Positions 9,964-50,803 of a stretch of 64,000 nucleotides of DNA are shown here, piece after piece. The notes below the pieces were generated by a model. The model did not search any database and had not been told where the DNA came from. It saw only the letters and a program-made list of their open reading frames with translations. Source of the DNA: an uncultured Pelagibacteraceae bacterium. GTDB lineage: Bacteria > Pseudomonadota > Alphaproteobacteria > Pelagibacterales > Pelagibacteraceae. Where the stretch lies: positions 98,884 through 162,883 of the forward strand of contig CACMWQ010000002.1 in assembly GCA_902617415.1 (NCBI GenBank), given 5' to 3'. The position numbers and the translations under genes are program-made. The stretch's first letter is position 1. The number at the start of each line of letters is the position of its first letter.

Positions 9964-10049
9964 TGGTGCCCTCGGCCAGACTCGAACCGGCACTCCCAAA
10001 AGGGCAAGGATTTTAAGTCCTTTGTGTCTACCAATTTCACCACGAGGGC
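9964..10049 (-). tRNA. tRNA-Leu (anticodon TAA), intact host copy A
   Basis: Reverse complement reads GCCCTCGTGGTGAAATTGGTAGACACAAAGGACTTAAAATCCTTGCCCTTTTGGGAGTGCCGGTTCGAGTCTGGCCGAGGGCACCA. It is 86 nt with a long variable arm and anticodon loop CTTAAAA. Confidence 0.92.
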
Positions 10050-10100
10050 TTTTAAATATTTTCTCATTATTAATAATCTATATAACATTAAATAAAAATA

Positions 10101-10799
10101 ATGAAAAAAATTTTGATAGGAACTGCTACTTATAATGAAGTAACTAATATAGAAATACTAATCAATAAAATAAATAATCTTGAATTAAATTTAGACATTA
10201 TTATAGTTGATGATAGTTCACCTGACGGTACCAGCAAAAAAATAAAAGAATTAAAAACAAAATTCTCAAATATAATTCTAATCAAGAGAAAAAATAAAAC
10301 TGGTTTAGATACAGCTCATAAATTAATTTTTAAGTATGCAAATCATAATAAATATAGGTATTTAATAACGCTAGATGCTGATCTTTCTCATGATCCAGGA
10401 TTGATAAAAGTTTTTTTAAAAAAAATAAAAAATTATGACACTGTATTAGGATCTAGATACATTAAAGGTGGAAAAAATGAATTAACAGGTTGGAGGTTTT
10501 TAATTAGTAAATATGGAAATTTAATAATTAAAAAAATTTTAAATTCTAAACTAAATGAATTTACAACTTCTTATAGATGTTTTGATCTAAAAAAATTAAA
10601 AAATTTTAATCTAAAAAAGGTAAAAGCAAAGGGATATAGTTTTTTTATGAATACAGTTTATTTATTAGAAAAGAATAATTACAATATCAAAGAAATACCT
10701 ATTAAATTTCACCAAAGGAAAAAAGGGAAATCTAAAATACCTAAAATTGAAATTTTTAGAACAATATTAAACTTATTTATAATAAAATTTAAAGACTAG
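10101..10799 (+). CDS. GT2 polyprenol-phosphate glycosyltransferase (Dpm1/GtrB/ArnC-like)
   Basis: 232 aa with IIIVDDSSPDGT, TLDADLSHDP and VLGSRYIKGG blocks, characteristic of dolichol/undecaprenol-phosphate sugar synthases. Confidence 0.85.
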   Translation: MKKILIGTATYNEVTNIEILINKINNLELNLDIIIVDDSSPDGTSKKIKELKTKFSNIILIKRKNKTGLDTAHKLIFKYANHNKYRYLITLDADLSHDPGLIKVFLKKIKNYDTVLGSRYIKGGKNELTGWRFLISKYGNLIIKKILNSKLNEFTTSYRCFDLKKLKNFNLKKVKAKGYSFFMNTVYLLEKNNYNIKEIPIKFHQRKKGKSKIPKIEIFRTILNLFIIKFKD

Positions 10800-11958
10800 T
10801 TTTTAAAAGATTTGGTGATTGTATTTTTGAATTTAATAAAAATAAATAAATCAACATTATAAAATTAATTAATAAATCTATACTTGATGGAACAATTACT
10901 TCTTGCTTAAAATAGATCATCTTTAAATATTCAATAAACCTTATTCCATACCAAAAATAAAAAATTATTAATATTGAGATAATTGATCTTTTAAAATTTA
11001 AATTTTTAAAATTATAGATTAATGTAGGTAATAGAACTATATAATCATAAATAAGATGGCCGAATATCATCAGATTTGAGATGCACATTAAATTTAAAAA
11101 TAATATTGGATCGGTTATTTTTGAAATTTTTTTTCCAAAAAATAAGGAAACTAAAATTACAATTAAAATCAAAAAATAAGTATGATTTTTACTTGCTTTA
11201 AAAAAATTAAAATTACTTAATATTGAATATAAATCTCCCCTAGTCAAAGTATCATCAAAACCTTTTAATCCAGCATATAGAGGTTGAAATATTGTTGTGA
11301 TTATATTTTGATCTAAATAAATCGAAAATATGATCCAACCGATGGTACAGAATAGTCCAGAAATAATTAGACTTTTAAACCCATCTTTAAAAAAAATAGC
11401 AAAAGCCAACAAAGGCATAAAGCTATATTTCATATAAGAAAATCCATAAAAAAAGTTTCGAAGATATTTATGTTTAATAAAAACTGAACAAAAACAAAGC
11501 AAGATTAATAAACTTGTCTGTCCATTTCCTATGCAATTTCTAAATGGAGTTGAAAGAAAAAATAGTGAAATAATTATAAGAATGTATTTTTTATCTATTT
11601 TACAATAACTGCCTATGATTATCCCTACAATTGTTCCAATTGAAAGATTTATTAAACTCCAGATTAATCGTGATATTTCATAATCAAAAAAACTAAAAAA
11701 ATAAAAAAAGATGTAGGTTGCGTGCGAGTAAACAGGGTATTGAGCTCCAATAATTCTGTCTAAATTATTGTTGTATAAAAAATATTCATACGGATTAACT
11801 TTTTCTTTGAAAAGCAACGTTGGGCTGTATTGAAAATCCATACTTCCATAAGTATTTGCTATATATAAAGCGTAGAATGCAGATAAAATCCCTAAAGATA
11901 AAATAAAAAATAAAATTATTTTATTTTTTAAAAAACTCAATTTATTAAGTTTTTCCAT
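10789..11958 (-). CDS. Polytopic membrane protein, putative GT-C-type glycosyltransferase
   Basis: 389 aa with many hydrophobic segments along its whole length. It is convergent with, and overlaps by 11 nt, the GT2 lipid-sugar synthase gene. The functional call comes from architecture and partnership only. Confidence 0.5.
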   Translation of the reverse strand: MEKLNKLSFLKNKIILFFILSLGILSAFYALYIANTYGSMDFQYSPTLLFKEKVNPYEYFLYNNNLDRIIGAQYPVYSHATYIFFYFFSFFDYEISRLIWSLINLSIGTIVGIIIGSYCKIDKKYILIIISLFFLSTPFRNCIGNGQTSLLILLCFCSVFIKHKYLRNFFYGFSYMKYSFMPLLAFAIFFKDGFKSLIISGLFCTIGWIIFSIYLDQNIITTIFQPLYAGLKGFDDTLTRGDLYSILSNFNFFKASKNHTYFLILIVILVSLFFGKKISKITDPILFLNLMCISNLMIFGHLIYDYIVLLPTLIYNFKNLNFKRSIISILIIFYFWYGIRFIEYLKMIYFKQEVIVPSSIDLLINFIMLIYLFLLNSKIQSPNLLKTSL

Positions 11959-11974
11959 TAAATAAATTAATTAG

Positions 11975-12030
11975 TGGTGCCCTCGGCCAGACTCGAACTG
12001 GCACTCCCAAAAGGGCAAGGATTTTAAGTC
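11975..12030 (-). pseudogene. 3' 56 nt of a second tRNA-Leu(UAA) gene (copy B), severed in the anticodon loop; left prophage junction
   Basis: It matches 55 of the 56 bases at 9964-10019 (single C/T difference in the T-stem). The match ends at TTTTAAGTC (12022-12030), which is the anticodon loop read on the plus strand. Confidence 0.9.
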
Positions 12031-12089
12031 TACCGACAAAATTAAAGTTAAGCTATAGCTCACTTTTACTACGCCTCCTGGTTCCTGTC

Positions 12090-12125
12090 TGCACAATTGC
12101 ACACACAATGCACAATTTATGCACA
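12090..12125 (-). repeat. Four copies of TGTGCA (read on the minus strand) in the attL-side phage arm; candidate integrase arm-type sites
   Basis: TGCACA occurs at 12090-12095, 12098-12103, 12109-12114 and 12120-12125, between the core and the int stop codon. Related doublets occur at 17086-17099 and 50629-50646. Confidence 0.45.
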
Positions 12126-12134
12126 CTCAAATTA

Positions 12135-13172
12135 CTAACTTTTACCTCCAGAAACAACTTTTAAATTGTTATGAAGGTTATCCAACTTCTTAGCTAAATC
12201 AATCTTAGCTTTAGGAAAGAAATGAATATATCTTTTTGCCATTGGTGAATTGTAAGACCAACCCATCCAATCGCAAACTTCCATATACGTTGCACCAGCT
12301 TCAGCAAGTCTTGATGCACAAGTATGTCTACATGAATGAAAGATGAAGTCTTTATTTTCTGACTGACCAAGAGCATGCCTAACCATATCCCATTTGTAGG
12401 TTATCTTTCTGTAGCTAGTGTCAAAGTAAGTCTTCATGTTACTTCTTCTCATAAGTATTTCTTTAGTTCTTGCAGTAATACCAACTGATGAAGTTGTGTC
12501 TGTTTTACTTCTATACACATAGCTAGTCCAACCATACTGAGACTTCAGCATGTCTTTAGGTGCAAGTTTAATTAACTCGTTAGCACGAGCACCAGTATCT
12601 ATTAGTACAGTTACAAAATCTTCTAAGTCGTTAAACCCATAGGTTCTGCACTGTTGATAAATAGCTTCCTCTTGTTCGTAACTATATGTAAACAGTCTTG
12701 TTAGCTTTTCTTTTTTTCTAGGTATTTTAAGTAAATGCTTTGGAGCTAAACCCATTCCAAGAGCATATCTAAACACCTTGTTTAAGCAACAAGCCCTTCT
12801 GTTGTTAGTTGCTGTATCCTCAAACTGAGCCGCAAACTTATACCACTCAGCTTTATCTATTTCTCTAAGCAACTTATCTTTACCCCAGAAATTGTAGAAC
12901 ATAGTAAAATAATACTTTTGTTTTTTACCATGGTCTGTATCTAACCAACCACTTTCTGGGTCGTTCCATGTAGCTTCACAAGCTTGTTGTAAAGTTACTT
13001 CTGACCTACTGATAGTAAGACCAATTTCTTTACCATCAATAAGTGCTTTCTTTAGTTTGTCTTCAGCAAGAACAGCTTCATCATAAGTATTAACAGTGCA
13101 ACCTTTTCTGCCTCTGCCTTTTACTTGTATCTGAACTCTGAACTTACCATTACTTGTCTTTTGTATACCCAT
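12135..13172 (-). CDS. int: Tyrosine recombinase / phage integrase
   Basis: Catalytic blocks TGARANEL (Arg), HSCRHTCASRL (His-x-x-Arg) and AKRYIH (Tyr). I trimmed the start to ATG 13172 (MGIQKTSNGKFRVQ), which is preceded by AGGAGG 9 nt upstream. The gene is adjacent to the att junction. Confidence 0.93.
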   Translation of the reverse strand: MGIQKTSNGKFRVQIQVKGRGRKGCTVNTYDEAVLAEDKLKKALIDGKEIGLTISRSEVTLQQACEATWNDPESGWLDTDHGKKQKYYFTMFYNFWGKDKLLREIDKAEWYKFAAQFEDTATNNRRACCLNKVFRYALGMGLAPKHLLKIPRKKEKLTRLFTYSYEQEEAIYQQCRTYGFNDLEDFVTVLIDTGARANELIKLAPKDMLKSQYGWTSYVYRSKTDTTSSVGITARTKEILMRRSNMKTYFDTSYRKITYKWDMVRHALGQSENKDFIFHSCRHTCASRLAEAGATYMEVCDWMGWSYNSPMAKRYIHFFPKAKIDLAKKLDNLHNNLKVVSGGKS

Positions 13173-13173
13173 T

Positions 13174-13521
13174 TTATATAGCCTCCTTTGCTTTAGGTAT
13201 GTCATTGAATAGGCTCTTAAATTTATGTCCAACAGTAGTAAGAATAATATCTTTTTGTCTTCTATCTTCACTGCTTTCAGATAATTTAATGAGACCTAAG
13301 TTTACTAATACTGCATTGTTTCTCGATAGAGACGCAGAATTTAACAGCTTGCCATACAATTCATAAAATTTTTTATTTGTATTTTCTACTGTTAATGTTC
13401 CCTCTTTCAGATGACACATGCAGTGAAATAACATCAAGGTATGTAGGTATAACCCATTGTCCATATTCTTATTTTTACCCAACTTATAGAACCTTGACGC
13501 AACTTCTCCGAAGTTACTCAT
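13174..13521 (-). CDS. MarR-like winged-helix DNA-binding protein (candidate lysogeny regulator or recombination directionality factor)
   Basis: 115 aa from ATG 13521, which has AAGGAG 7 nt upstream. SASLSRNNAVLVNLGLIKLSESSEDRRQKDIILTTVG fits the MarR recognition helix plus DRR wing. Its stop lies 1 nt before the int ATG. Confidence 0.55.
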   Translation of the reverse strand: MSNFGEVASRFYKLGKNKNMDNGLYLHTLMLFHCMCHLKEGTLTVENTNKKFYELYGKLLNSASLSRNNAVLVNLGLIKLSESSEDRRQKDIILTTVGHKFKSLFNDIPKAKEAI

Positions 13522-24326: not shown

Positions 24327-26644
24327 TAGTTAAATTGTCCTCCTCCTGACGCACCGAAGCTAGATGTTAAGCTAAATGCTCTATCTGCTGTTTGACCTTC
24401 GGCATCAGTTATTCTTACTGTAAAGTTATAAGTGGTAGCTGTTGTTGATGAGCCACCGAAATCTGTTGTTGTTAATGCTCCTGCTGAAGTTAATGTTACA
24501 TTAGCTCCACTTAAATTAGAGGTTACTTCTGAAAATGTAATTGCACTGTCTGAAGAACCTTGAATTGTAAATAAAGTACCAGAAAAATTTCCTGCAAAAG
24601 TTCCTAATGAACCTGCGGCTGTACTAAAGGATGGAGCTGTTGATGCAGTAATAATATTATTAGTACTTCTTCCTGCGTTACCATCAGGATTTTCTACTCT
24701 TACATGATAGTTACCTGATGCTAATGTTACATTGACTGATAAAGTTGTAGCATTAGTAAATGAGACTGTATTTGCTCTTGTAACAGAACCATCTGTTTTT
24801 ATAAAATCTACTTGTGGTATTGATACAAAATTAGTTCCTGTAATATTTATTGTCGTAGCTGTTGCAGGTGCAATAGTTTGCGATACATTAGCTACTGTTG
24901 GTTTTGTTTCTGTTGCATCTATAAAACTTAATACACCAGAACCATTAGTTGCCAATACCTGTCCATTTGTTCCTGTATTTGTAGGTAATGTAAATGTTAA
25001 GTTACCTGCGTAGCTTGCATGGCTAGGACTTTTTATAGCCGCATAATGCGAGTTTTGAGAACACCGCAACCTGATTTCACCATCAGCAGAAGACCCATCA
25101 CCTTTTACTTCTAATACTGGTGAAGGCAGTCTGTCATTATTAATTGTACCTGATGTAATATTAGCGGCACTAAAACTAGATAACTGGAAGGTGCCATAGC
25201 TAACCACTTGTAAAATATCGTTAAGCGTAGCTCCAGAACCCAGGACTATGCTTGTACCATTTGTTGCTGTAAAATCTGAAGTATCTAATTTTACACCATT
25301 TAAATAAATATCAGCAAATGCAGTTCCGCCAGCAACATCATAAGTTAATGTATTACCATTAGCATCACTTCCTGAGAATGTTGTCTGACCTGCTGTTGCA
25401 GTAAATTTAAACCTCTGGCTGGTACCATTCACACTGCTCCCTGCCAACTGGTACGAGCTTCCATCAAAGACTTTTAGTTTCTGAGCATTTGTATCGAATA
25501 CCAAATCTCCGACATCATTACTTGATGAAGGTACTCCTGATTGAACTCTGTATCTTTCAGCAAAACTATTTACTCCAGATAAATTTGTAGCAACTGTATT
25601 AATATTTGTTAATCCACCTGCTACTGAATTTATATTTGTAATAGCTCCAGCAACATTATTTATGTTTGTTGAATTATTATTTACAGTTGTAATAGCAGTG
25701 TTCATACCTGCTACTGTAGTTATGTTTGAAGATATACCAGCAACAGTATTAATATTTGAGCTATTAGAATTGACAGCATTTATATTTGTAGAGTTACCTG
25801 CAACTGCATTTATATTTGTAGAGTTGGCATTAACTGCATTAATATTAGTTGAATTATTATTTACTGCTGTAATTGCAGAAGATATTCCTGCTACTGTATT
25901 TATATCAGATATATTAGTTCCAACTGTATTTACATTAGCAATGCTTCCTGCAACTACATCAATTTCAGAACTTGCTTCATTTAAATCATCAGCAACAGTT
26001 TCTATTTCTGATACTGCTTCATTTAAATCATCAGCAACTTTTTGTACGTCTGCAATGTTTGTAGCAACTGTATTAACATTAGCTATATTTGTAGCTACTG
26101 TATTTATGTTAGTAGAGTTACTATTTACTGAATTAATATTGCTTAAATTATTTGCAACTGTAGTAATGTTAGCGGCTATACCTGCAACAGTATTTATGTT
26201 TGGTAAGTTTGTAGATATGAATTGTTTATTGACTGCATCTTTATTATCTACTGGGTCTGCAACATTTACTATTCTTTTGTTTAGTGCATCAAATCTATCA
26301 GAAGTATCCAAGCCCATTTTGCCATCAACATTATCTGCTGTTTCTTGAGCTAAGAAAAAGTTCTGGTCTGCTGACTGGTCTAAGTCTGATGATGTTAATA
26401 CACTACCATCCTGGAAATCAACTAACCTAGCATTTGAAGGTGTAGTTCTCTGTATGAGTACTACAGCTCCATTTGCTGGCGTTGATGACAATTGAACTGA
26501 AGATGCCGAAGGAAATGTAATGTTAGTATCTTCTGTACCATTTACAAAAGCTTTTACATGGCTTTGTAAAATGTATGGGAATGAAAACGAAAACGTATTC
26601 GTACTACCATTAGCAGTATACGTCACACGAGCATTAAACGACAT
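24326..26644 (-). CDS. Tail fibre (T7 gp17-like N-terminal adaptor, heptad-repeat shaft, IPT-like C-terminal region)
   Basis: 772 aa. The N-terminus MSFNARVTYTANGSTNTFSFSFPYI...LVDFQDGSVLTSSDLD resembles the gp17 tail-attachment domain. About 30 xNINTVA-type heptads follow. The C-terminal block VNVTLASGNYHVRVENPDGNAG is Ig/IPT-like. Confidence 0.8.
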   Translation of the reverse strand: MSFNARVTYTANGSTNTFSFSFPYILQSHVKAFVNGTEDTNITFPSASSVQLSSTPANGAVVLIQRTTPSNARLVDFQDGSVLTSSDLDQSADQNFFLAQETADNVDGKMGLDTSDRFDALNKRIVNVADPVDNKDAVNKQFISTNLPNINTVAGIAANITTVANNLSNINSVNSNSTNINTVATNIANVNTVATNIADVQKVADDLNEAVSEIETVADDLNEASSEIDVVAGSIANVNTVGTNISDINTVAGISSAITAVNNNSTNINAVNANSTNINAVAGNSTNINAVNSNSSNINTVAGISSNITTVAGMNTAITTVNNNSTNINNVAGAITNINSVAGGLTNINTVATNLSGVNSFAERYRVQSGVPSSSNDVGDLVFDTNAQKLKVFDGSSYQLAGSSVNGTSQRFKFTATAGQTTFSGSDANGNTLTYDVAGGTAFADIYLNGVKLDTSDFTATNGTSIVLGSGATLNDILQVVSYGTFQLSSFSAANITSGTINNDRLPSPVLEVKGDGSSADGEIRLRCSQNSHYAAIKSPSHASYAGNLTFTLPTNTGTNGQVLATNGSGVLSFIDATETKPTVANVSQTIAPATATTINITGTNFVSIPQVDFIKTDGSVTRANTVSFTNATTLSVNVTLASGNYHVRVENPDGNAGRSTNNIITASTAPSFSTAAGSLGTFAGNFSGTLFTIQGSSDSAITFSEVTSNLSGANVTLTSAGALTTTDFGGSSTTATTYNFTVRITDAEGQTADRAFSLTSSFGASGGGQFN

Positions 26645-41894: not shown

Positions 41895-42188
41895 TTATAT
41901 CCTAATCTTCGTTAGTTTGATTATGTTTATTGATGGTATTGTTGTAGTGTTTCCACAATCACCTATAGTTCCATCATCATTAAAATTCACATCACTAACG
42001 AATGTATGTGAATTGTTGTTTGTAGAAACAAGCCAACCTGTAGAAATACAGATTGATGGCTTATAATTTTTTATTGTCTTAATACTCTCCCAACTGCATG
42101 TAGAGTTAGTGTCATACCAATGAGCTAAATAAAATTTGTATGGCCAGTCTTTTTTATTTAGTTGCGGTAGTTTTATTTTTGATTTCAA
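41895..42188 (-). CDS. Hypothetical protein (97 aa)
   Basis: ORF in the collinear array. Confidence 0.45.
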   Translation of the reverse strand: MKSKIKLPQLNKKDWPYKFYLAHWYDTNSTCSWESIKTIKNYKPSICISTGWLVSTNNNSHTFVSDVNFNDDGTIGDCGNTTTIPSINIIKLTKIRI

Positions 42189-42594
42189 TTTCTCTCCATA
42201 AGTTTACAAAATCTGTCATTGGAATTAGGACACACCTTGACTGAAAGTTGTCTCCAAGCATTCTGATAATTGTTGATTTTCTTTTTTTATTTTCTTTAAT
42301 AAATCTTCTAACTATTTGTTTAAGAACTTTGACTTCTGTTATCCATTGACCAATACAAACATCCTGGTTGAACATAAATCTATGTATCCAGTACTTTGCT
42401 TTTGTTGCTCTTAAACCTGATGGTCTTCCTTTATATGCTAGCTCAATACAAAGGTTTCCTGACTTTTGCCAAAAACCAAATTCTGATTTAACTTCAAATT
42501 TATCTGCATCTAATCCTAGTATTTTGCTTATAGACTTTTCGGAATGTACTCCTCTAGCCAAATCAAAATCGAAATCTTTTGTATTGTTAATCAT
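42154..42594 (-). CDS. Hypothetical protein (146 aa from MINNTKDF; track ORF extends to 42654 into the tRNA)
   Basis: The first 20 codons of the track ORF are read through the antisense strand of the tRNA-Leu gene, so I trimmed to the Met at 42594. Confidence 0.45.
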   Translation of the reverse strand: MINNTKDFDFDLARGVHSEKSISKILGLDADKFEVKSEFGFWQKSGNLCIELAYKGRPSGLRATKAKYWIHRFMFNQDVCIGQWITEVKVLKQIVRRFIKENKKRKSTIIRMLGDNFQSRCVLIPMTDFVNLWREIEIKNKTTATK

Positions 42595-42626: not shown

Positions 42627-42712
42627 GCCCTTGTGGTGAAATCGGTAGACACATTGGACTTAAAATCCAAGCCCTTTTGGGAGTGCCAGTTCGAGTCTGG
42701 CCAAGGGCACCA
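42627..42712 (+). tRNA. Phage-encoded tRNA-Leu (anticodon TAA), complete, opposite strand to all phage CDS
   Basis: GCCCTTGTGGTGAAATCGGTAGACACATTGGACTTAAAATCCAAGCCCTTTTGGGAGTGCCAGTTCGAGTCTGGCCAAGGGCACCA. It is 86 nt, the same length as host copy A. It differs at 8 positions; 6 form 3 compensatory base-pair swaps, one converts a G-U pair to A-U, and one lies in the D-loop. Confidence 0.9.
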
Positions 42713-42716
42713 ACGC

Positions 42717-44483
42717 TTAGTGAGTGTCAGCCCAGGTCTTTCCTATTTTATATTCTGCATCTAAAGGACATCTAAAATTAAAATAAGCACCTGCATCTTT
42801 TATTGATTGAACTGCAATCTTACCTACCTCATCAGCATAATCAGATTTACACTGAAGCTGTAACTCATCATGCACATGAGCAACCATAGAACAGATATTT
42901 TTATCATAATTTTTTTCCTTAAGTTTGTTATGTAGAATTACAGTAGCCATCTTTATAATAAGTGCTCCACTACTTTGTATTAATAAATTTAAACTTGAAT
43001 GTTCAGACCTTGGTATTAATTTTCTTTTGTCTAAACCTAATAAATATTTTTGATTTTTTGCTTTTACTAAAACATTATCTCTTAATAATTTTAGTGCTGG
43101 TATTGTTTCAAATAATTTTGTTTTTATTCTTCTCCCCTCGTAGGAGGTTTTATCAACAATTGCACCAAGCCTTGTATCTCCGATACCATAGATGACACCA
43201 TAAATGACCCTCTTTGCCAAATCTCTCGTTGGTAAACCAATCTGTTTCTGATTTTTGGAATGAACATCACCATCAAGAAGTTCCCTCGCAAAATTACCTT
43301 TATCGAATGCACCGAGATAATGAGCAAGACAACGAAGTTCAAGACCACTAGCGTCACAGCCAATAAGAACAAAACCATCAGGAACAGTAAAAAGAGAACG
43401 ACATTCTTTACCATAAGGAACACCAACACTGGGAGTTTGTGCAACATTTGGTCTTTGGTGAGTACACCTTCCAGTGTTTGCACCATTCGTGATAACGCTT
43501 CCATAAATTTTTCCATCTTGTTGTAATTTTAACCAGGCATTATTTCCTTCTGCTAACATGCCTATTCTTTTAGCTATTAAAAAATGTTCTGATAATAATT
43601 TTGCTTCAGGATATTCTAATGTAGATAATATACTTTCATCTACTTTAGGTTTACCATCAGGAGTAAAGTCTTTTGGTTTCCATCCTTTGTTCATCAACCT
43701 ATTACTAATGTGGTCTCTTGAGTTAGGATTGAATTGTACTTCTTTATATTTTTTTACAGGTACACCTTTTTTATAACCTTTACTTTTATTATCTCTCTTA
43801 GGAATAAATGTACCTACATATTGTTTCCAATTTGGGAAGGTCGAAACTAGAGATTTCTCTAGCTCCAACCTTCTGTTTGCAAGTGAGGCATACAGCTTCT
43901 TTGCAGAAGCCACATCAAATGTAAACCCATGTGCTTCTTGCAGATATATACATCTGGCAAAGTCGTGCTCTAGCTTTATTGCATCTGGAGAATAATTTTG
44001 TTTTTGTATTAATTTGTAGAACTCGTGTGTAACTTCTACATCTTGTTCACAATACTTTTGCATTTCAGGAGACCATTGTGAGAAGTCACCTGTCTTTATA
44101 AAATCACCTTTTCTTAATCCTAATCTATAACCCCAGGCTTCAAGTGAATGTCTTCCTGCGAGCTGTAGCGGCAAGTCTTTACGTTGGTAATCTAATTCTT
44201 TTCTATTAGTCCATATCAGTCTGCTTACTAATAGCGTATCAAATACTTCAGCTTTAATATCATATTGTCTTGGAAACAATTTTTCTAAAACTGGTAAATC
44301 AAATTTTAAAATATTATGGCCAACTAATAAGCTAGCACCATTTAACAACATAAGACCTCTACCTATTTTATCTCCATGATAAGAATAGACCTGATTAGTC
44401 TCTATGTTTTTGATTACAATTGAATGAACTACAGTAGCATCTGATAAGAAACCATTAGTTTCTATATCAAATACAAGTTTCAT
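42717..44483 (-). CDS. Family A DNA polymerase with 3'-5' exonuclease (T7 gp5-like)
   Basis: 588 aa. Exo I is VFDIETNG and Exo II is HNILKFDLPVL. Pol motif A is DASGLELRCLAHY, motif B is RDLAKRVIYGVIYG and motif C is HVHDELQ. Confidence 0.93.
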   Translation of the reverse strand: MKLVFDIETNGFLSDATVVHSIVIKNIETNQVYSYHGDKIGRGLMLLNGASLLVGHNILKFDLPVLEKLFPRQYDIKAEVFDTLLVSRLIWTNRKELDYQRKDLPLQLAGRHSLEAWGYRLGLRKGDFIKTGDFSQWSPEMQKYCEQDVEVTHEFYKLIQKQNYSPDAIKLEHDFARCIYLQEAHGFTFDVASAKKLYASLANRRLELEKSLVSTFPNWKQYVGTFIPKRDNKSKGYKKGVPVKKYKEVQFNPNSRDHISNRLMNKGWKPKDFTPDGKPKVDESILSTLEYPEAKLLSEHFLIAKRIGMLAEGNNAWLKLQQDGKIYGSVITNGANTGRCTHQRPNVAQTPSVGVPYGKECRSLFTVPDGFVLIGCDASGLELRCLAHYLGAFDKGNFARELLDGDVHSKNQKQIGLPTRDLAKRVIYGVIYGIGDTRLGAIVDKTSYEGRRIKTKLFETIPALKLLRDNVLVKAKNQKYLLGLDKRKLIPRSEHSSLNLLIQSSGALIIKMATVILHNKLKEKNYDKNICSMVAHVHDELQLQCKSDYADEVGKIAVQSIKDAGAYFNFRCPLDAEYKIGKTWADTH

Positions 44484-47881: not shown

Positions 47882-49615
47882 TTAGCTACAAAAATAATAA
47901 CTACCAAGGACATTCTTCAACTCCAGGCTTCCTTGCTCAGGTAATGCAGGTATTTTATGTCTTAAATGTTTAGGTATCTGATATTCAACTTCCTTAAGAA
48001 AATCCTCAAGTAAATTTTTTCCATCAAATATTTCTACAAATGCTTCACGCAATGCAATGTTCATTGTTGAAACATCTGTTGCTAAACATCCAAAGCTATC
48101 ATGCACACAAGCAAAGTTTTCTATATTGTAATCACTAGCTTTGCACACAGCCTTTTGTAATAAAGCACCATCAAGTGAATGCACAAAGTTTGGTGCAATA
48201 CTATTTGCTACTCTACGTTTATCTATTTTATTTGTCTCAACAGCTATAGATGTTTTTCTTATATCAGGTGTCCACTTACCAGTCTTAGGTCTAAATATTT
48301 TTTCACCCATATAAGTATTAACTCTTTTAGTTTCTAATACTGGACATACCATTTGCACTATAGCATTTGTTGGTGTTGTCCACACAACAGGTAAACCATT
48401 TTCAGAAATTAATTTAGATACATCTTGCAACCATTTCATTGCAACCTTTGCAGATTTAATAACTCTATCTAAAGCTTTCCATACTAACTTAGATAAGTAT
48501 GCAGTACCTTTAAATATATTAGGAACTCCAGGCTTAGGATTTCTGTCAGTAGAAAAAGGTATATCAACACCTTCTTCTTCCATTTCTTCTAAGTGTTCCT
48601 GGATATATTTTCTACAAGAGAATTGTGTAAGACCATATACAATACACATTGTAACTTTCTTACAGGTTTTTCTAGTAATACCATAGTCTAACCATATCTC
48701 TTTTAACAAACTATCTTCTTGTTCTTTTAATAGGTTTTCAGTTTCTACTGCAACTTCACCATACACATCAGCAACTCTATTACCTGGTACAAGATTAACT
48801 GCATTACCACCTACTTCATCTCTTAATAAACCAGAGAATATTTGTAGGCCTGAGTTAGTACAATCAGAATAACAAATAACATTAGTTACAAAATTAAGAG
48901 ACTTGCCTGATTTACAGAAGTCGTTCCATTCAAAACAGAATGCAAGAAACTGTACTGGTTCAGAACAATTAGCCCAAAATTCATAATGACTATGTGGGTC
49001 TTCTGCTGTTGCACATATAGCTTCTTCATTATCTACAACCCATTTAACTCTATTATCTAATGTATCTTTATCATGGCCATACATATTAGCTCCATGAATA
49101 GATAACTTTCTTACAGCTCCATAACCTTCAATTGGTTTACCATTAGCAAATAATAATAAACCTTTTGCTAAATCACATTCTTGATAGTTAAGTCCTTCAG
49201 GTACACAATATATTCTTTGTCTATTGTCATACTGTAATGGAAAATAAAACTCTAAAAAATTTTCATAAGTATCTGCAACAGAAAATATTTTTTCTATATG
49301 TAAAAACTTACTGTCAATTGTAGAGTTGTAATCATGGACTGACCTTTTTCTATGACTGTATTGTTTTCTTGCTTCTTCATTAGTAGCAATATCGTGTGGT
49401 TTAATTGGGAGCTCCAGCTTGTATGGCGGCAACCCTGCAATAGGTAACTTCTTATGATACAAAGTCTTCATTACCTGTAGCGTTCTTGTATTTATTTTAA
49501 ATGGAGTATTCTGTAATGTATTAATACACTTATAATACTCTGGCATTTCGTGTGCTCTGTTTGCCATTTCTTCTAGGTAAGCCCTAGTTGCTCTTTTGAC
49601 TATTGGATAGTTCAT
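47882..49615 (-). CDS. Single-subunit RNA polymerase, C-terminal fragment (thumb-palm-fingers; T7 RNAP residues about 299 to the end)
   Basis: 577 aa. YPIVKRATRAYL...MPEYYKCINTLQNTPFKIN aligns to T7 LALVRTHSKKAL...MPEVYKAINIAQNTAWKIN. DCTNSGLQIFSGLLRDEVGGNAVNL, ITRKTCKKVTMCIVYG and VHDSFG are catalytic blocks. It has its own GAGG SD 7 nt upstream of the ATG. Confidence 0.9.
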   Translation of the reverse strand: MNYPIVKRATRAYLEEMANRAHEMPEYYKCINTLQNTPFKINTRTLQVMKTLYHKKLPIAGLPPYKLELPIKPHDIATNEEARKQYSHRKRSVHDYNSTIDSKFLHIEKIFSVADTYENFLEFYFPLQYDNRQRIYCVPEGLNYQECDLAKGLLLFANGKPIEGYGAVRKLSIHGANMYGHDKDTLDNRVKWVVDNEEAICATAEDPHSHYEFWANCSEPVQFLAFCFEWNDFCKSGKSLNFVTNVICYSDCTNSGLQIFSGLLRDEVGGNAVNLVPGNRVADVYGEVAVETENLLKEQEDSLLKEIWLDYGITRKTCKKVTMCIVYGLTQFSCRKYIQEHLEEMEEEGVDIPFSTDRNPKPGVPNIFKGTAYLSKLVWKALDRVIKSAKVAMKWLQDVSKLISENGLPVVWTTPTNAIVQMVCPVLETKRVNTYMGEKIFRPKTGKWTPDIRKTSIAVETNKIDKRRVANSIAPNFVHSLDGALLQKAVCKASDYNIENFACVHDSFGCLATDVSTMNIALREAFVEIFDGKNLLEDFLKEVEYQIPKHLRHKIPALPEQGSLELKNVLGSYYFCS

Positions 49616-50591
49616 TATTTACCTCATTTGTTTGTGTTGATTGTTTAGTAGGTTCTCCTAAAGTGGCACCTAATTCAGCAGGTCTTAAATCCTTGATATA
49701 ATAACCACCAGAATATGGGTTCAGTTCCCATTCTTTCGGTTTAACAACCATAGGTTCTCTAAAAGGTTTTAAAATTTCTGCATGAATTTTTTTCTTCTCA
49801 ATCCAGTCAATAGTTTTTTGTGTAGCCTGGACATAGACAATTGACTTGCCTTTTACTGCATATTGTTTTGTGAGTTTTATAAAGCCAGTGGACTTGGCTA
49901 ATAGTTCAAGAAGTAGTTTACCAAGTTTAACCTTTTCTTCTTTAGACCAACCTGAGTATTCCAGGCTATGTTTATTCATAGCATAATTAAATACTCTACG
50001 TTTATGTCTGTAGTTATTCTTAGTCTTTAACCATTCTTTTGTTTGGGAATAAGTTCGATTATCTGTCTCTTTGAAATATAATAATCTAGCCTCATCTTCA
50101 ATTGCTGATGCTATTTTAAGCACAGCTTTTGTTTGTGTGGATGAAACAGTGATACTATCAAGCACAGCTTTTAATGTTATGAATGCTATACCTGACCACC
50201 TCTCTGAATTATCCTTATCTACTTCCTGAATAGGAATACACTTAGTTAATAACTTAGCTTCGCTTGCAAATCTTTTAGTATGACCATCAAATGCTTCTAT
50301 AAAATATTTATTTATAGCTTCACACATAGGCTCTAATCCTGACTGCATTAGTGCCTGACCATAGATAGTTGTACTTTCATTGGTCTCTCTTGGCTTACCA
50401 GTTTTCTCTGCAATTTTTGCTCTGGATTTGTATATATTTTTATGGAACCTTTTTATGCCACGTTTGATGTTGTTAAGTTCCAGTTGTTTTTCAGCCTCTA
50501 TTTTATTGTGTAGAGTTGAAGGCTTGTCGTGCACACTCTTGTCATTTTTAAGTATGCCAAATTTCTCTAGTATTGACTTATCTATTTCCAT
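49584..50591 (-). CDS. Single-subunit RNA polymerase, N-terminal-domain fragment
   Basis: 335 aa. PMVVKPKEWELNPYSGGYYIKDLRP aligns to T7 PMLIPPKPWTGITGGGYWANGRRP. A 31-aa hydrophilic tail without a T7 counterpart follows, then the stop. GAGG SD 4 nt upstream of the ATG. Confidence 0.85.
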   Translation of the reverse strand: MEIDKSILEKFGILKNDKSVHDKPSTLHNKIEAEKQLELNNIKRGIKRFHKNIYKSRAKIAEKTGKPRETNESTTIYGQALMQSGLEPMCEAINKYFIEAFDGHTKRFASEAKLLTKCIPIQEVDKDNSERWSGIAFITLKAVLDSITVSSTQTKAVLKIASAIEDEARLLYFKETDNRTYSQTKEWLKTKNNYRHKRRVFNYAMNKHSLEYSGWSKEEKVKLGKLLLELLAKSTGFIKLTKQYAVKGKSIVYVQATQKTIDWIEKKKIHAEILKPFREPMVVKPKEWELNPYSGGYYIKDLRPAELGATLGEPTKQSTQTNEVNNELSNSQKSN

Positions 50592-50628
50592 AGTACCTCA
50601 TTAATGTTTATTTTTTGTTCGTAGTTTC

Positions 50629-50646
50629 TGTGCACGCATGTGCACG
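50629..50646 (+). repeat. Two TGTGCACG repeats in the attR-side phage arm
   Basis: Copies at 50629-50636 and 50639-50646, spaced 10 bp. They belong to the same TGTGCA family as 12090-12125 and 17086-17099. Confidence 0.45.
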
Positions 50647-50651
50647 TCTAC

Positions 50652-50732
50652 TACGCCAGCGTAACGAACACATTTAATGTTCGCAACAGTTTAATTCGCT
50701 AGTAATGTAAGGTATTCTACTACGCTAGTGTA
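50652..50732. repeat. Two degenerate copies of the TACGCTAGCGTA palindrome upstream of the RNAP gene
   Basis: TACGCCAGCGTA at 50652-50663 and TACGCTAGTGTA at 50721-50732, each with one mismatch. A CGAACA/TGTTCG inverted repeat lies between them. Confidence 0.45.
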
Positions 50733-50764
50733 GATTTATCGGAGGCGTAGAATGTGTCGATAGT

Positions 50765-50803
50765 TTTTAAGTCCTTTGTGTCTACCAATTTCACCACGAG
50801 GGC
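50765..50803 (-). pseudogene. 5' 39 nt of tRNA-Leu(UAA) copy B; right prophage junction
   Basis: Identical (39 of 39) to 10011-10049 of copy A. It starts with the core TTTTAAGTC (50765-50773). The adjacent phage DNA has no T-arm or acceptor sequence. Confidence 0.9.

What the first reader, a model, noticed from the sequence alone, without database searches (positions are those of the whole stretch)
42627..42712. Phage carries a complete tRNA-Leu(UAA), the same isoacceptor it destroys, on the strand opposite to every phage gene
The only plus-strand feature in the 38.7 kb element is an 86-nt tRNA-Leu(TAA), squeezed between the DNA polymerase stop (42717) and the next CDS. It has the same length and anticodon as the host gene. 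It differs at 8 positions. Six of them form three compensatory base-pair swaps, in acceptor pair 6:67 and two anticodon-stem pairs. One more converts the T-stem G-U pair of copy A into A-U, and the last lies in the D-loop. This pattern indicates selection for function rather than recent capture or decay.

Antisense orientation would allow expression from its own host-type promoter while the minus-strand lytic genes are silent. That is the arrangement expected if the gene replaces the tRNA disrupted at the integration site. Alternative or additional roles are supplying the dominant Leu codon (UUA) of an AT-rich phage, resisting tRNA-targeting host defences, or providing homology for recombination with host tRNA-Leu genes. 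The T-stem base of the severed fragment at 11999 matches the phage allele, not copy A.
Basis: partly seen in the sequence, partly recalled or inferred. Interest (0 to 1): 0.75.

Follow-up and report, generated by a model that had tools for sequence, protein, structure and literature searches.

The report
Prophage's spare leucine tRNA gene
A T7-like virus integrated in a SAR11 ocean bacterium cuts the host's tRNA-Leu(UAA) gene in two and carries its own well-conserved copy of that tRNA. This arrangement is already described for related SAR11 viruses, so the case is real but mostly ordinary.

Summary
An 86-nt tRNA-Leu(UAA) gene lies at 42627-42712 (+) (ARAGORN; Rfam tRNA 61.2 bits). It sits 4 nt from the DNA polymerase stop. 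It is antisense to every gene of a 38.7-kb T7-like prophage (12031-50764).

The prophage has split a host tRNA-Leu(UAA) gene in its anticodon loop at a 9-bp core, and neither junction rebuilds a tRNA.

The gene is under selection:
- It is 86/86 identical in contigs whose flanks are only 86-89% identical.
- 11 of 23 stem pairs covary across phage alleles.
- It occupies the same slot and strand in every relative examined with DNA polymerase at least 64% identical.

About 20 relatives that looked tRNA-less carry the same gene interrupted by a 191-196-nt group I intron, so the antisense strand must be transcribed there.

- Replacement of a disrupted tRNA was already proposed for pelagiphages HTVC019P, 025P, 119P, 200P and uv-Fonsiphage-EPL.
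- This host keeps an intact second copy.
- UUA usage is equal in phage and host.
- No consensus promoter was found.
- The "T-stem allele match" is uninformative, because copy A is the deviant.

Verdict: new member of a known kind, with modest interest.

The parts
42627..42712 (+). Phage-borne tRNA-Leu(UAA) gene. It is 86 nt, class II, with CCA encoded and no intron.
   Evidence: ARAGORN; Rfam tRNA 61.2 bits; cloverleaf fold; covariation among phage alleles.
12031..50764 (-). T7-like (Chosvirus-like) pelagiphage prophage of 38.7 kb, with all protein genes on the minus strand.
   Evidence: PHROG and Pfam hits for RNAP, SSB, amidase, primase/helicase, DNA polymerase, exonuclease, portal, scaffold, capsid, tail tube, internal virion protein, terminase and integrase. 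The closest GenBank phage is KT997847, with DNA polymerase 65% identical.
42717..44483 (-). Family A DNA polymerase. Its stop codon is 4 nt from the tRNA 3' end, and the two genes converge.
   Evidence: phrog_17, E=2e-135; sequence read.
42154..42594 (-). p166/p146, a conserved gene of unknown function (phrog_13596). It always flanks the tRNA slot on the other side.
   Evidence: No Pfam or PDB relative.
12135..13271 (-). Tyrosine integrase, the last gene of the prophage, next to attL.
   Evidence: phrog_1, E=5e-34; PF00589.
47882..50591 (-). Split T7-type RNA polymerase (335 aa + 577 aa), the first genes after attR.
   Evidence: phrog_414. Split RNAP is typical of this pelagiphage group (PMC6811365).
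12022..12030 (.). attL copy of the 9-bp crossover core TTTTAAGTC. It corresponds to tRNA positions 31-39, GACTTAAAA.
   Evidence: The same core sits in the intact attP of free-phage contigs L010, L116 and L198.
50765..50773 (.). attR copy of the 9-bp core.
11975..12030 (-). 3' half (positions 31-86) of the split host tRNA-Leu(UAA) copy B.
   Evidence: Direct repeat D4 and inverted repeat I2; sequence.
50765..50803 (-). 5' half (positions 1-39) of the split host tRNA-Leu(UAA) copy B.
   Evidence: Direct repeat D11, 100% identical to copy A; sequence.
9964..10049 (-). Intact host tRNA-Leu(UAA) copy A, next to NAD kinase. It carries a private G62 (a G.U pair in the T-stem).
   Evidence: 80 of 80 relatives have A62.
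10050..11974 (.). A 1.9-kb, 22% GC island with two glycosyltransferase genes, lying between copy A and the 3' half of copy B.

Best explanation
The feature is a functional tRNA-Leu(UAA) gene that belongs to a temperate T7-like pelagiphage.

Integration (shown). The phage's tyrosine integrase recombines an attP that lies between int and the RNA polymerase gene. This attP shares only a 9-bp core (GACTTAAAA) with the host. The core is the anticodon loop of the host tRNA-Leu(UAA) gene. Integration therefore splits that gene into two halves, and neither junction is repaired.

Replacement (inferred). SAR11 genomes normally carry one gene per tRNA species, and UUA is their commonest leucine codon. 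A lysogen would lack this tRNA unless the prophage supplies it. I propose that the phage copy is transcribed from its own strand by the host RNA polymerase. That strand is antisense to the phage-polymerase-driven lytic genes. The antisense placement would mean that its transcription does not read into lytic genes in the sense direction.

Status of each step. Shown: the integration geometry, the selection on the gene, and its conservation across the clade. Inferred: expression in the lysogen, aminoacylation, and the insulation reason for the orientation. In this particular genome a second intact host copy (copy A) exists, so the phage gene is redundant here.
For: 1. Integration splits copy B and does not restore it. 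The reconstructed attP matches free-phage contigs.
2. The same slot and the same antisense strand are seen in all 11 IMG/VR contigs found by tRNA pattern and in KT997847. The same holds in metagenome contigs.
3. Purifying selection: the tRNA is 86/86 identical in six contigs (85/86 in two more) whose 400-nt flanks are 86-94% identical.
4. Covariation: 98.8% of cells are paired and 11 of 23 pairs changed on both sides; 0 of 500 shuffles reached this.
5. Relatives that seemed to lack the tRNA carry it with a group I intron at U34|A35. Rfam RF00028 scores 51-63.5 bits in 10 of 14 loci, and 15 intron pairs show compensatory change. A maintained self-splicing intron implies that the tRNA strand is transcribed.
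6. Spliced products are often 100% identical to host alleles. What is supplied is therefore plain host-type tRNA-Leu(UAA).
7. 80 related SAR11 genomes show one intact copy at this locus. A freshwater SAR11 relative (Fonsibacter) has about 31 tRNA genes in all (PMC6811365). TTA makes up 56-58% of Leu codons.
8. Published precedent: HTVC019P, 025P, 119P and 200P integrate disruptively and carry a cognate tRNA, whereas phages that restore the gene lack one. uv-Fonsiphage-EPL is a further case.
9. Orientation: the internal tRNAs of HTVC019P, 119P and 200P are also antisense. The sense-strand tRNAs of 011P and 025P sit between int and RNAP, so if attP lies downstream of them, as Zhao et al. describe for HTVC011P, they end up at the prophage end.
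Against: - This lysogen keeps an intact copy A, so no replacement is required here.
- No sigma-70-like promoter or intrinsic terminator was found on the + strand. Only AT-rich -10-like hexamers and a partly conserved TTTTGTAAAA motif are present.
- No expression data are available.
- Whole-genome tRNA content of the source genome and of the relatives was not examined; only about 10 kb on each side was seen.
- The orientation rule rests on only 3-4 independent acquisitions.
Confidence: 0.6

Rival explanations
1. Lytic-cycle translation booster. The phage tRNA raises the supply of tRNA-Leu(UAA) during productive infection of a host that has a single gene for its most-used leucine codon. Integration is irrelevant under this view.
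For: UUA accounts for 4.75% of all phage codons and 58% of Leu codons. The tRNA is retained in free-phage contigs. This role does not exclude the replacement role.
Against: UUA usage is not higher in phage than in host (47.5 vs 49.7 per 1000), so the classical codon-bias criterion fails. The gene is antisense to every phage-RNAP transcription unit, so it cannot ride on lytic transcripts. T7-like relatives outside the clade (DNA polymerase 52-57% identical) have p166 directly after the polymerase with no tRNA there.
Confidence: 0.2
2. Defence-evading variant. The stem changes make a tRNA-Leu(UAA) that resists a host or competitor anticodon nuclease that cleaves the host tRNA.
For: The window allele differs from the host in two anticodon-stem pairs. 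Such roles are known for other phage tRNAs (my own knowledge of the T5/PARIS and mycobacteriophage cases; not checked here).
Against: The 7-nt anticodon loop is identical to the host's. Many intron-bearing relatives splice to a tRNA 100% identical to host alleles h1 or h2. L382, L390 and L392 keep the host-type anticodon stem-loop. No nuclease was identified; the window's proteins were not scanned for one.
Confidence: 0.04
3. Passenger or relic. The tRNA was captured from a host by illegitimate recombination and persists neutrally, or serves only as homology for recombination with host tRNA genes.
For: Some phage alleles (L006, L013) are host alleles with a single pair swapped, and they carry two different host variable-arm variants. 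This hints at exchange with host genes.
Against: There are zero substitutions where flanks diverge 11-14%, and covariation is strong. The slot is fixed across lineages down to 64% DNA polymerase identity. The gene lies 8 kb from attR and 30 kb from attL, so imprecise excision is not the source.
Confidence: 0.04
4. Cis-acting RNA element. The reverse complement of the tRNA, embedded in the polycistronic phage mRNA between DNA polymerase and p166, acts as a processing or pausing signal, and the tRNA itself is not the product.
For: The gene always sits in the same intergenic slot. No stem in the alleles examined contains a G.U pair, so the antisense strand could fold equally well.
Against: The anticodon, A73, CCA, T-loop and D-loop consensus are all kept on the + strand. 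Relatives carry a group I intron with its catalytic core oriented on the tRNA strand. That makes sense only if that strand is the functional transcript.
Confidence: 0.03

Closest known systems
Pelagiphage HTVC019P tRNA-Cys(GCA) (Zhao et al., bioRxiv 10.1101/410191; later Environ Microbiol 2019)
   Same: It is a T7-like temperate pelagiphage with attP between int and RNAP. Integration splits the host tRNA in the middle without repair. A complete cognate tRNA sits mid-genome in the replication module and is 'likely used instead'. That tRNA is also antisense to the phage genes.
   Different: The amino acid differs (Cys) and so does the slot (between amidase and primase). DNA polymerase is below 50% identical. 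Its integration was verified experimentally; the window's was not.
Pelagiphages HTVC119P and HTVC200P tRNA-Leu(TAA)
   Same: The isoacceptor is the same. The core is the same type (GACTTAAAATC in attP). Integration is disruptive. The tRNA is antisense to the phage genes.
   Different: The tRNA lies just upstream of int, not after the DNA polymerase. Its sequence is very different, with 26 of 86 positions differing from the window's. DNA polymerase is 44-45% identical.
HTVC025P and uv-Fonsiphage-EPL tRNA-Leu(TAG) (Chen et al., PMC6811365)
   Same: [quoted passage not shown] The RNAP is split, as here.
   Different: The anticodon is TAG. In HTVC025P the tRNA lies between int and RNAP on the sense strand; the Fonsiphage's own position and strand were not checked.
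Classical tRNA-targeting attP that restores the gene (for example HTVC109P, 021P, 022P; cyanophage P-SSP7 and P-SS2)
   Same: A tyrosine integrase uses a tRNA gene as attB.
   Different: Those attP sites carry a tRNA half that rebuilds the gene, so no separate tRNA is needed. Here attP shares only 9 bp with the host, and the gene is not rebuilt.
tRNA-Leu(UAA) group I intron of cyanobacteria and plastids (Rfam RF00028; my own knowledge of the insertion site)
   Same: Sister phages of the window's prophage carry a 191-196-nt group I intron at the same site, U34|A35, of the same tRNA.
   Different: The window's own gene has no intron. The carrier is a phage of SAR11, and the 80 host genes examined are intron-free.

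Membership tests
Bacterial class II tRNA-Leu gene | Cloverleaf with a long variable arm, detected by tRNA covariance and heuristic models. | tested here: met
   ARAGORN; RF00005 61.2 bits against a gathering score of 29; MFE cloverleaf.
Bacterial class II tRNA-Leu gene | Anticodon UAA in a 7-nt loop (C U U A A A A), discriminator A73 and a 3' CCA. | tested here: met
   Read directly from the sequence.
Bacterial class II tRNA-Leu gene | Stems maintained by compensatory change among homologues. | tested here: met
   11 of 23 pairs changed on both sides; 98.8% of cells paired; slid controls give 19-44%.
Bacterial class II tRNA-Leu gene | Transcribed, processed and charged with leucine. | not testable with these tools
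   No RNA data. Indirect support comes from group I introns maintained in the same gene of sister phages.
Replacement tRNA of tRNA-disrupting temperate T7-like pelagiphages (Zhao et al.; Chen et al.) | T7-like podovirus gene set with its own RNAP and a tyrosine integrase, with attP between int and RNAP. | tested here: met
Replacement tRNA of tRNA-disrupting temperate T7-like pelagiphages (Zhao et al.; Chen et al.) | The crossover core lies in the middle of a host tRNA gene, and integration leaves two halves that are not rebuilt. | tested here: met
Replacement tRNA of tRNA-disrupting temperate T7-like pelagiphages (Zhao et al.; Chen et al.) | The phage carries a complete tRNA with the same anticodon as the disrupted gene. 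| tested here: met
Replacement tRNA of tRNA-disrupting temperate T7-like pelagiphages (Zhao et al.; Chen et al.) | The lysogen has no other functional gene for that tRNA. | tested here: not met
   Copy A (9964-10049) is intact in this genome. All 80 relatives show one intact copy within 10 kb of NAD kinase. Whole genomes were not examined.
Codon-bias-compensating phage tRNA | The cognate codon is used more in the phage than in the host. | tested here: not met
   TTA is 47.5 per 1000 in phage and 49.7 per 1000 in host genes of the window.
Nuclease-evading phage tRNA | The mature tRNA differs from the host's in the anticodon loop or stem in all carriers. | tested here: not met
   The loop is identical. 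Many intron-bearing relatives give a host-identical mature tRNA. L382, L390 and L392 keep the host-type anticodon arm.
Intron-containing tRNA-Leu(UAA) (group I, U34|A35) | A group I intron interrupts the anticodon loop. | tested here: not met
   The window gene is uninterrupted. The feature is met only in sister phages.

The most novel reading that the evidence does not exclude
The phage's own tRNA gene contains the integrase's crossover core, so it must be prevented from acting as an attB for that integrase or for those of related phages.

On this reading, the two anticodon-stem pair swaps of the window allele and the group I intron of its sister phages are alternative solutions to one problem. 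The intron splits the core at U34|A35 yet is spliced out of the RNA.

In the first sample the association was perfect. All 15 unique intron-bearing genes kept the host-type stem. All 8 unique intron-less genes had a non-host stem. On a rough DNA polymerase tree the two states alternate, which would need at least about 3 changes of state.

A direct falsification search then found three intron-less slot genes (L382, L390, L392) with an uninterrupted host-type anticodon arm. Only a weaker form therefore survives, in which integrase recognition extends beyond the stem or those phages use another site.
Probability: 0.12. Interest if true: 0.7.

Novelty: new member of a known kind. Interest (0 to 1): 0.35.

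Why it matters
The window gives a natural lysogen for a clade of T7-like marine phages (Chosvirus-like; KT997847 from 3,010 m depth) that has no cultured member. It links that clade to a SAR11 host.

It extends a published rule to a new lineage: pelagiphages that break a tRNA gene carry a spare. Here the gene sits in a new genomic slot. Sequence evidence shows that the spare is maintained by selection and, in sister phages, transcribed.

If the spare is the only tRNA-Leu(UAA) in typical single-copy lysogens, the host depends on the prophage for its commonest leucine codon. That would bear on how stable lysogeny is in the most abundant marine bacteria.

The side observation may be the more interesting lead. 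I found no earlier report of a group I intron inside a phage tRNA gene in the paper library.

Tried and rejected
1. Self-attB immunity, strict form: every uninterrupted phage copy must differ from the host in stem pairs 28:44 and 29:43. This was tested with a pattern scan for AAAGGACTTAAAATCCTTG in IMG/VR. L382, L390 and L392 are counter-examples.

2. The AATGG/CCATG stem is phage-specific. Rejected: the metagenome scan found it next to NAD kinase in more distant SAR11-like hosts (L104, L106, L113, L114). The window-type ATTGG/CCAAG stem was seen only in phage context.

3. Close relatives lack the tRNA. Rejected: reading the slot showed an intron-split gene.

4. Sigma-70 promoter and terminator scans found nothing on the + strand. 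A custom scan over 20 alleles found nothing consistent.

5. A single-protein locus search with the RNAP N-terminal part found only one relative. It was replaced by an alignment query.

7. A search for other lysogens by the attL junction found none in IMG/VR. Lysogen junctions did turn up in L210, L218 and L247.

8. An exact-protein lookup of the source contig found nothing on record.

9. p166 has no Pfam or PDB relative.

10. No relative among the 80 host loci carries this prophage or its integrase.

Full report
**1. What is in the sequence**

ARAGORN finds six tRNAs in the window. Two are tRNA-Leu(taa): one at 9964-10049 (-) and one at 42627-42712 (+). Rfam's tRNA model scores the second at 61.2 bits (E=8e-11), above the host copy at 55.4 bits. 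It folds into a class II cloverleaf with a 3-bp variable-arm stem, discriminator A and an encoded CCA.

The two genes differ at exactly eight positions: 6, 17, 28, 29, 43, 44, 62 and 77. On the cloverleaf, 6:77, 28:44 and 29:43 are double (compensatory) changes. Position 62 turns a G.U into A-U in the T-stem. Position 17 is in the D-loop.

**2. The element around it**

Positions 12031-50764 hold a T7-like podovirus with every gene on the minus strand. In order these are:
- a split RNA polymerase (50591-47882), SSB, amidase and primase/helicase;
- DNA polymerase (44483-42717);
- the tRNA, on the opposite strand;
- a conserved unknown gene (42594-42154) and an exonuclease;
- portal, scaffold, capsid, tail tube and internal virion proteins;
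- terminase (19176-17509) and a tyrosine integrase (13271-12135).

All plus-strand ORFs of 40 aa or more lie within or overlap minus-strand genes.

The ends are a 56-nt 3' half (11975-12030) and a 39-nt 5' half (50765-50803) of a second host tRNA-Leu(UAA). They share the 9-bp core TTTTAAGTC, which is the anticodon loop plus two stem bases. Neither junction is recognised as a tRNA.

Joining the two prophage ends gives an attP with a dyad: TGTCGGTAG-ACTTAAAAA-CTATCGACA. It also has outer inverted repeats GGAGGCGTAG/CTACGCCTCC and repeated GCGTAGTAGA and TGTGCA motifs. The same uninterrupted attP, between int and RNAP, occurs in free-phage contigs L010, L116 and L198. The boundaries and the integration mechanism are therefore well founded.

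**3. The host side**

The host is a SAR11 (Pelagibacteraceae) bacterium. The flanking NAD kinase is up to 91% identical to single-cell genomes.

In all 80 related loci there is exactly one full-length tRNA-Leu(UAA), next to NAD kinase. In 41 of them, one to three orphan 39-40-nt 5' halves lie 1-9 kb upstream. This marks a hot spot where elements that bring their own 5' half have integrated repeatedly.

All 80 host genes have A at position 62. The G62 of copy A is therefore private to this genome.

The real phage-versus-host difference is seven positions. Host variation is confined to the variable arm, with three alleles that I call h1-h3.

This genome is the only one of 81 with two full-length copies. 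They flank a 1.9-kb glycosyltransferase island of 22% GC. Because copy A is intact, the prophage did not deprive this cell of tRNA-Leu(UAA).

**4. Is the phage gene selected?**

Yes, on four lines of evidence.

- Position. A pattern scan of IMG/VR found 11 contigs, and a metagenome scan found more. In every phage-context hit of this clade the tRNA sits between DNA polymerase and p166, antisense to them. The same is true in GenBank phage KT997847, where the gene is unannotated.
- Conservation. In six contigs whose 400-nt flanks are 86-89% identical to the window, the tRNA is 86/86 identical.
- Covariation. Seven distinct phage alleles give 98.8% paired cells and 11 of 23 pairs with changes on both sides. 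Shuffled controls reach this 0 times in 500, and slid controls give 19-44% pairing.
- Specificity. The window-type allele (ATTGG/CCAAG stem, U6:A77, C17) was found only in phage context.

**5. A surprise among the relatives**

A DNA-polymerase-based search returned about 20 close relatives (76-86% identical) in which ARAGORN saw no tRNA and the slot was about 320 nt long. Several of them have the same 9-11-bp attP core.

Reading the slot showed otherwise. It holds the same antisense tRNA-Leu(UAA) gene, interrupted by 191-196 nt between U34 and A35.

Rfam identifies the insert as a group I intron. RF00028 scores 53 bits (E=1e-12) in L133, and 10 of 14 loci reach the gathering score. The insert ends in G, and its helices show 15 pairs with compensatory change.

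Nine of the 15 unique intron-bearing genes splice to a tRNA identical to host allele h1 or h2. Three conclusions follow:
- the tRNA is universal in the clade;
- its strand must be transcribed, or the ribozyme core would decay;
- what the phage supplies is ordinary host-type tRNA-Leu(UAA), which argues against a nuclease-resistant variant.

I found no report of a group I intron in a phage tRNA gene in the paper library. Absence from this library is not proof of novelty.

**6. What it most likely does**

The published explanation fits. Zhao et al. showed experimentally that HTVC019P-type pelagiphages integrate into tRNA genes. They noted that phages whose attP cannot rebuild the gene carry a complete cognate tRNA that 'is likely used instead'. 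Those phages are HTVC019P, 025P, 119P and 200P. Phages that rebuild the gene lack such a tRNA. Chen et al. say the same for a Fonsibacter prophage.

The window adds a new lineage and a new slot. In three subclades where both regions could be read (window type, KM23 type, L100 type), attP has only the short core and the tRNA is present.

UUA is 56-58% of leucine codons in both phage and host. The tRNA is therefore important, but not specially so for the phage. The codon-bias model is not met.

**7. Why antisense?**

The internal tRNAs of HTVC019P, 119P and 200P are also antisense. The sense-strand tRNAs of 011P and 025P lie between int and RNAP. Zhao et al. place the HTVC011P attP core downstream of its tRNA, which would leave that tRNA at the prophage end with no phage gene downstream.

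I infer that a constitutively host-transcribed tRNA is tolerated only where read-through does not enter lytic genes in the sense direction. This rests on three or four independent cases and is not proven.

No sigma-70 consensus promoter or terminator was found. A TTTTGTAAAA-like motif 14-20 nt upstream recurs in many alleles. It could equally belong to the p166 leader on the other strand.

**8. A hypothesis tested and mostly lost**

The phage tRNA necessarily contains the integrase's crossover core. I therefore asked whether it is kept from acting as an attB.

In the first sample the pattern was perfect. All 15 unique intron-bearing genes had the host-type anticodon stem. All 8 unique intron-less genes had a non-host stem. 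A rough DNA polymerase tree suggested at least three state changes.

Two results undercut this:
- The AATGG/CCATG stem also occurs in distant SAR11-like hosts.
- A direct search found three intron-less slot genes (L382, L390, L392) with an uninterrupted host-type anticodon arm.

Only a weakened form survives. I give it 0.12.

**9. Verdict**

The central interpretation, a functional replacement for the tRNA the phage destroys, is plausible and matches published cases. However, it is not new, it is not needed in this particular genome, and it remains unproven without RNA data.

This is a new member of a known kind. The intron-bearing sister genes are the most interesting by-product.

Noticed in passing
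L133:4347-4521 (-); also L123, L125, L126, L129, L131, L132, L134, L136, L139, L141 and other loci: Sister phages carry the same antisense tRNA-Leu(UAA) gene interrupted by a 191-196-nt group I intron between U34 and A35. Rfam RF00028 scores 51-63.5 bits. Nine of the 15 unique genes splice to a tRNA identical to host alleles. ARAGORN misses these genes. No report of a group I intron in a phage tRNA gene was found in the paper library.
   Followed up: partly
Host loci L014-L093, upstream of the NAD-kinase-adjacent tRNA-Leu: 41 of 80 related SAR11 genomes have one to three orphan 39-40-nt 5' halves of tRNA-Leu(UAA), 1-9 kb upstream of the single intact gene. The fragments end at the same anticodon-loop core. 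The locus is a hot spot for serial integration of elements that bring their own 5' half. The island contents vary.
   Followed up: partly
window 9964-12030: This genome alone (1 of 81) has two full-length tRNA-Leu(UAA) copies. They flank a 1.9-kb, 22% GC glycosyltransferase island. Copy A has a private G62 (a G.U pair in the T-stem). Five bases past the 3' end are also duplicated. This suggests an earlier element whose attP was a whole tRNA gene.
   Followed up: partly
window 12031-12134 and 50592-50764 (the two halves of attP): attP architecture. A 9-bp dyad TGTCGGTAG / CTATCGACA lies around the core. Outer inverted repeats GGAGGCGTAG / CTACGCCTCC and repeated GCGTAGTAGA and TGTGCA motifs are present; these are likely arm-type integrase sites or promoters. 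The P' arm shares 9 nt (TCGGTAGAC) with the D-arm of the phage tRNA, which may be a relic of a former 5'-half-bearing attP.
   Followed up: no
L098, L108, L111, L115, L381, L383: Other pelagiphage-like contigs carry a complete tRNA-Leu(TAA) in sense orientation, either between int and RNAP or directly after int. These genes resemble the tRNA of more distant SAR11-like hosts (L113, L114). They might themselves be attP sites that would create two full copies on integration.
   Followed up: no
L382:2198-2284, L390:1900-1986, L392:5393-5479: A further subclade (DNA polymerase 64-67% identical) has an intron-less slot tRNA. Its acceptor, D, variable and T arms are very divergent, but its anticodon arm is exactly host-type.
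   Followed up: partly
L006, L009, L109 vs L013 (tRNA slot): Phages with 92-95% identical flanks carry tRNAs that differ only in the variable arm, matching two different host alleles (h3 and h2). This hints at exchange between phage and host tRNA genes. L006-type contigs also have about 100 extra nt between the tRNA and the DNA polymerase.
   Followed up: partly
window 25559-26200 (-), inside the 772-aa tail-fibre-like gene: At least 13 copies of a repeat with 30-nt spacing (10-residue periodicity) lie within the coding sequence.
   Followed up: no
KT997847.1 14648-14733 (L001:5996-6081): The GenBank record of uncultured phage Deep1-GF2-KM23-C739 (Chosvirus) has an unannotated tRNA-Leu(TAA) in the same slot. 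The window's prophage and the SAR11-type attP core suggest that the host of this deep-sea phage lineage is SAR11.
   Followed up: partly
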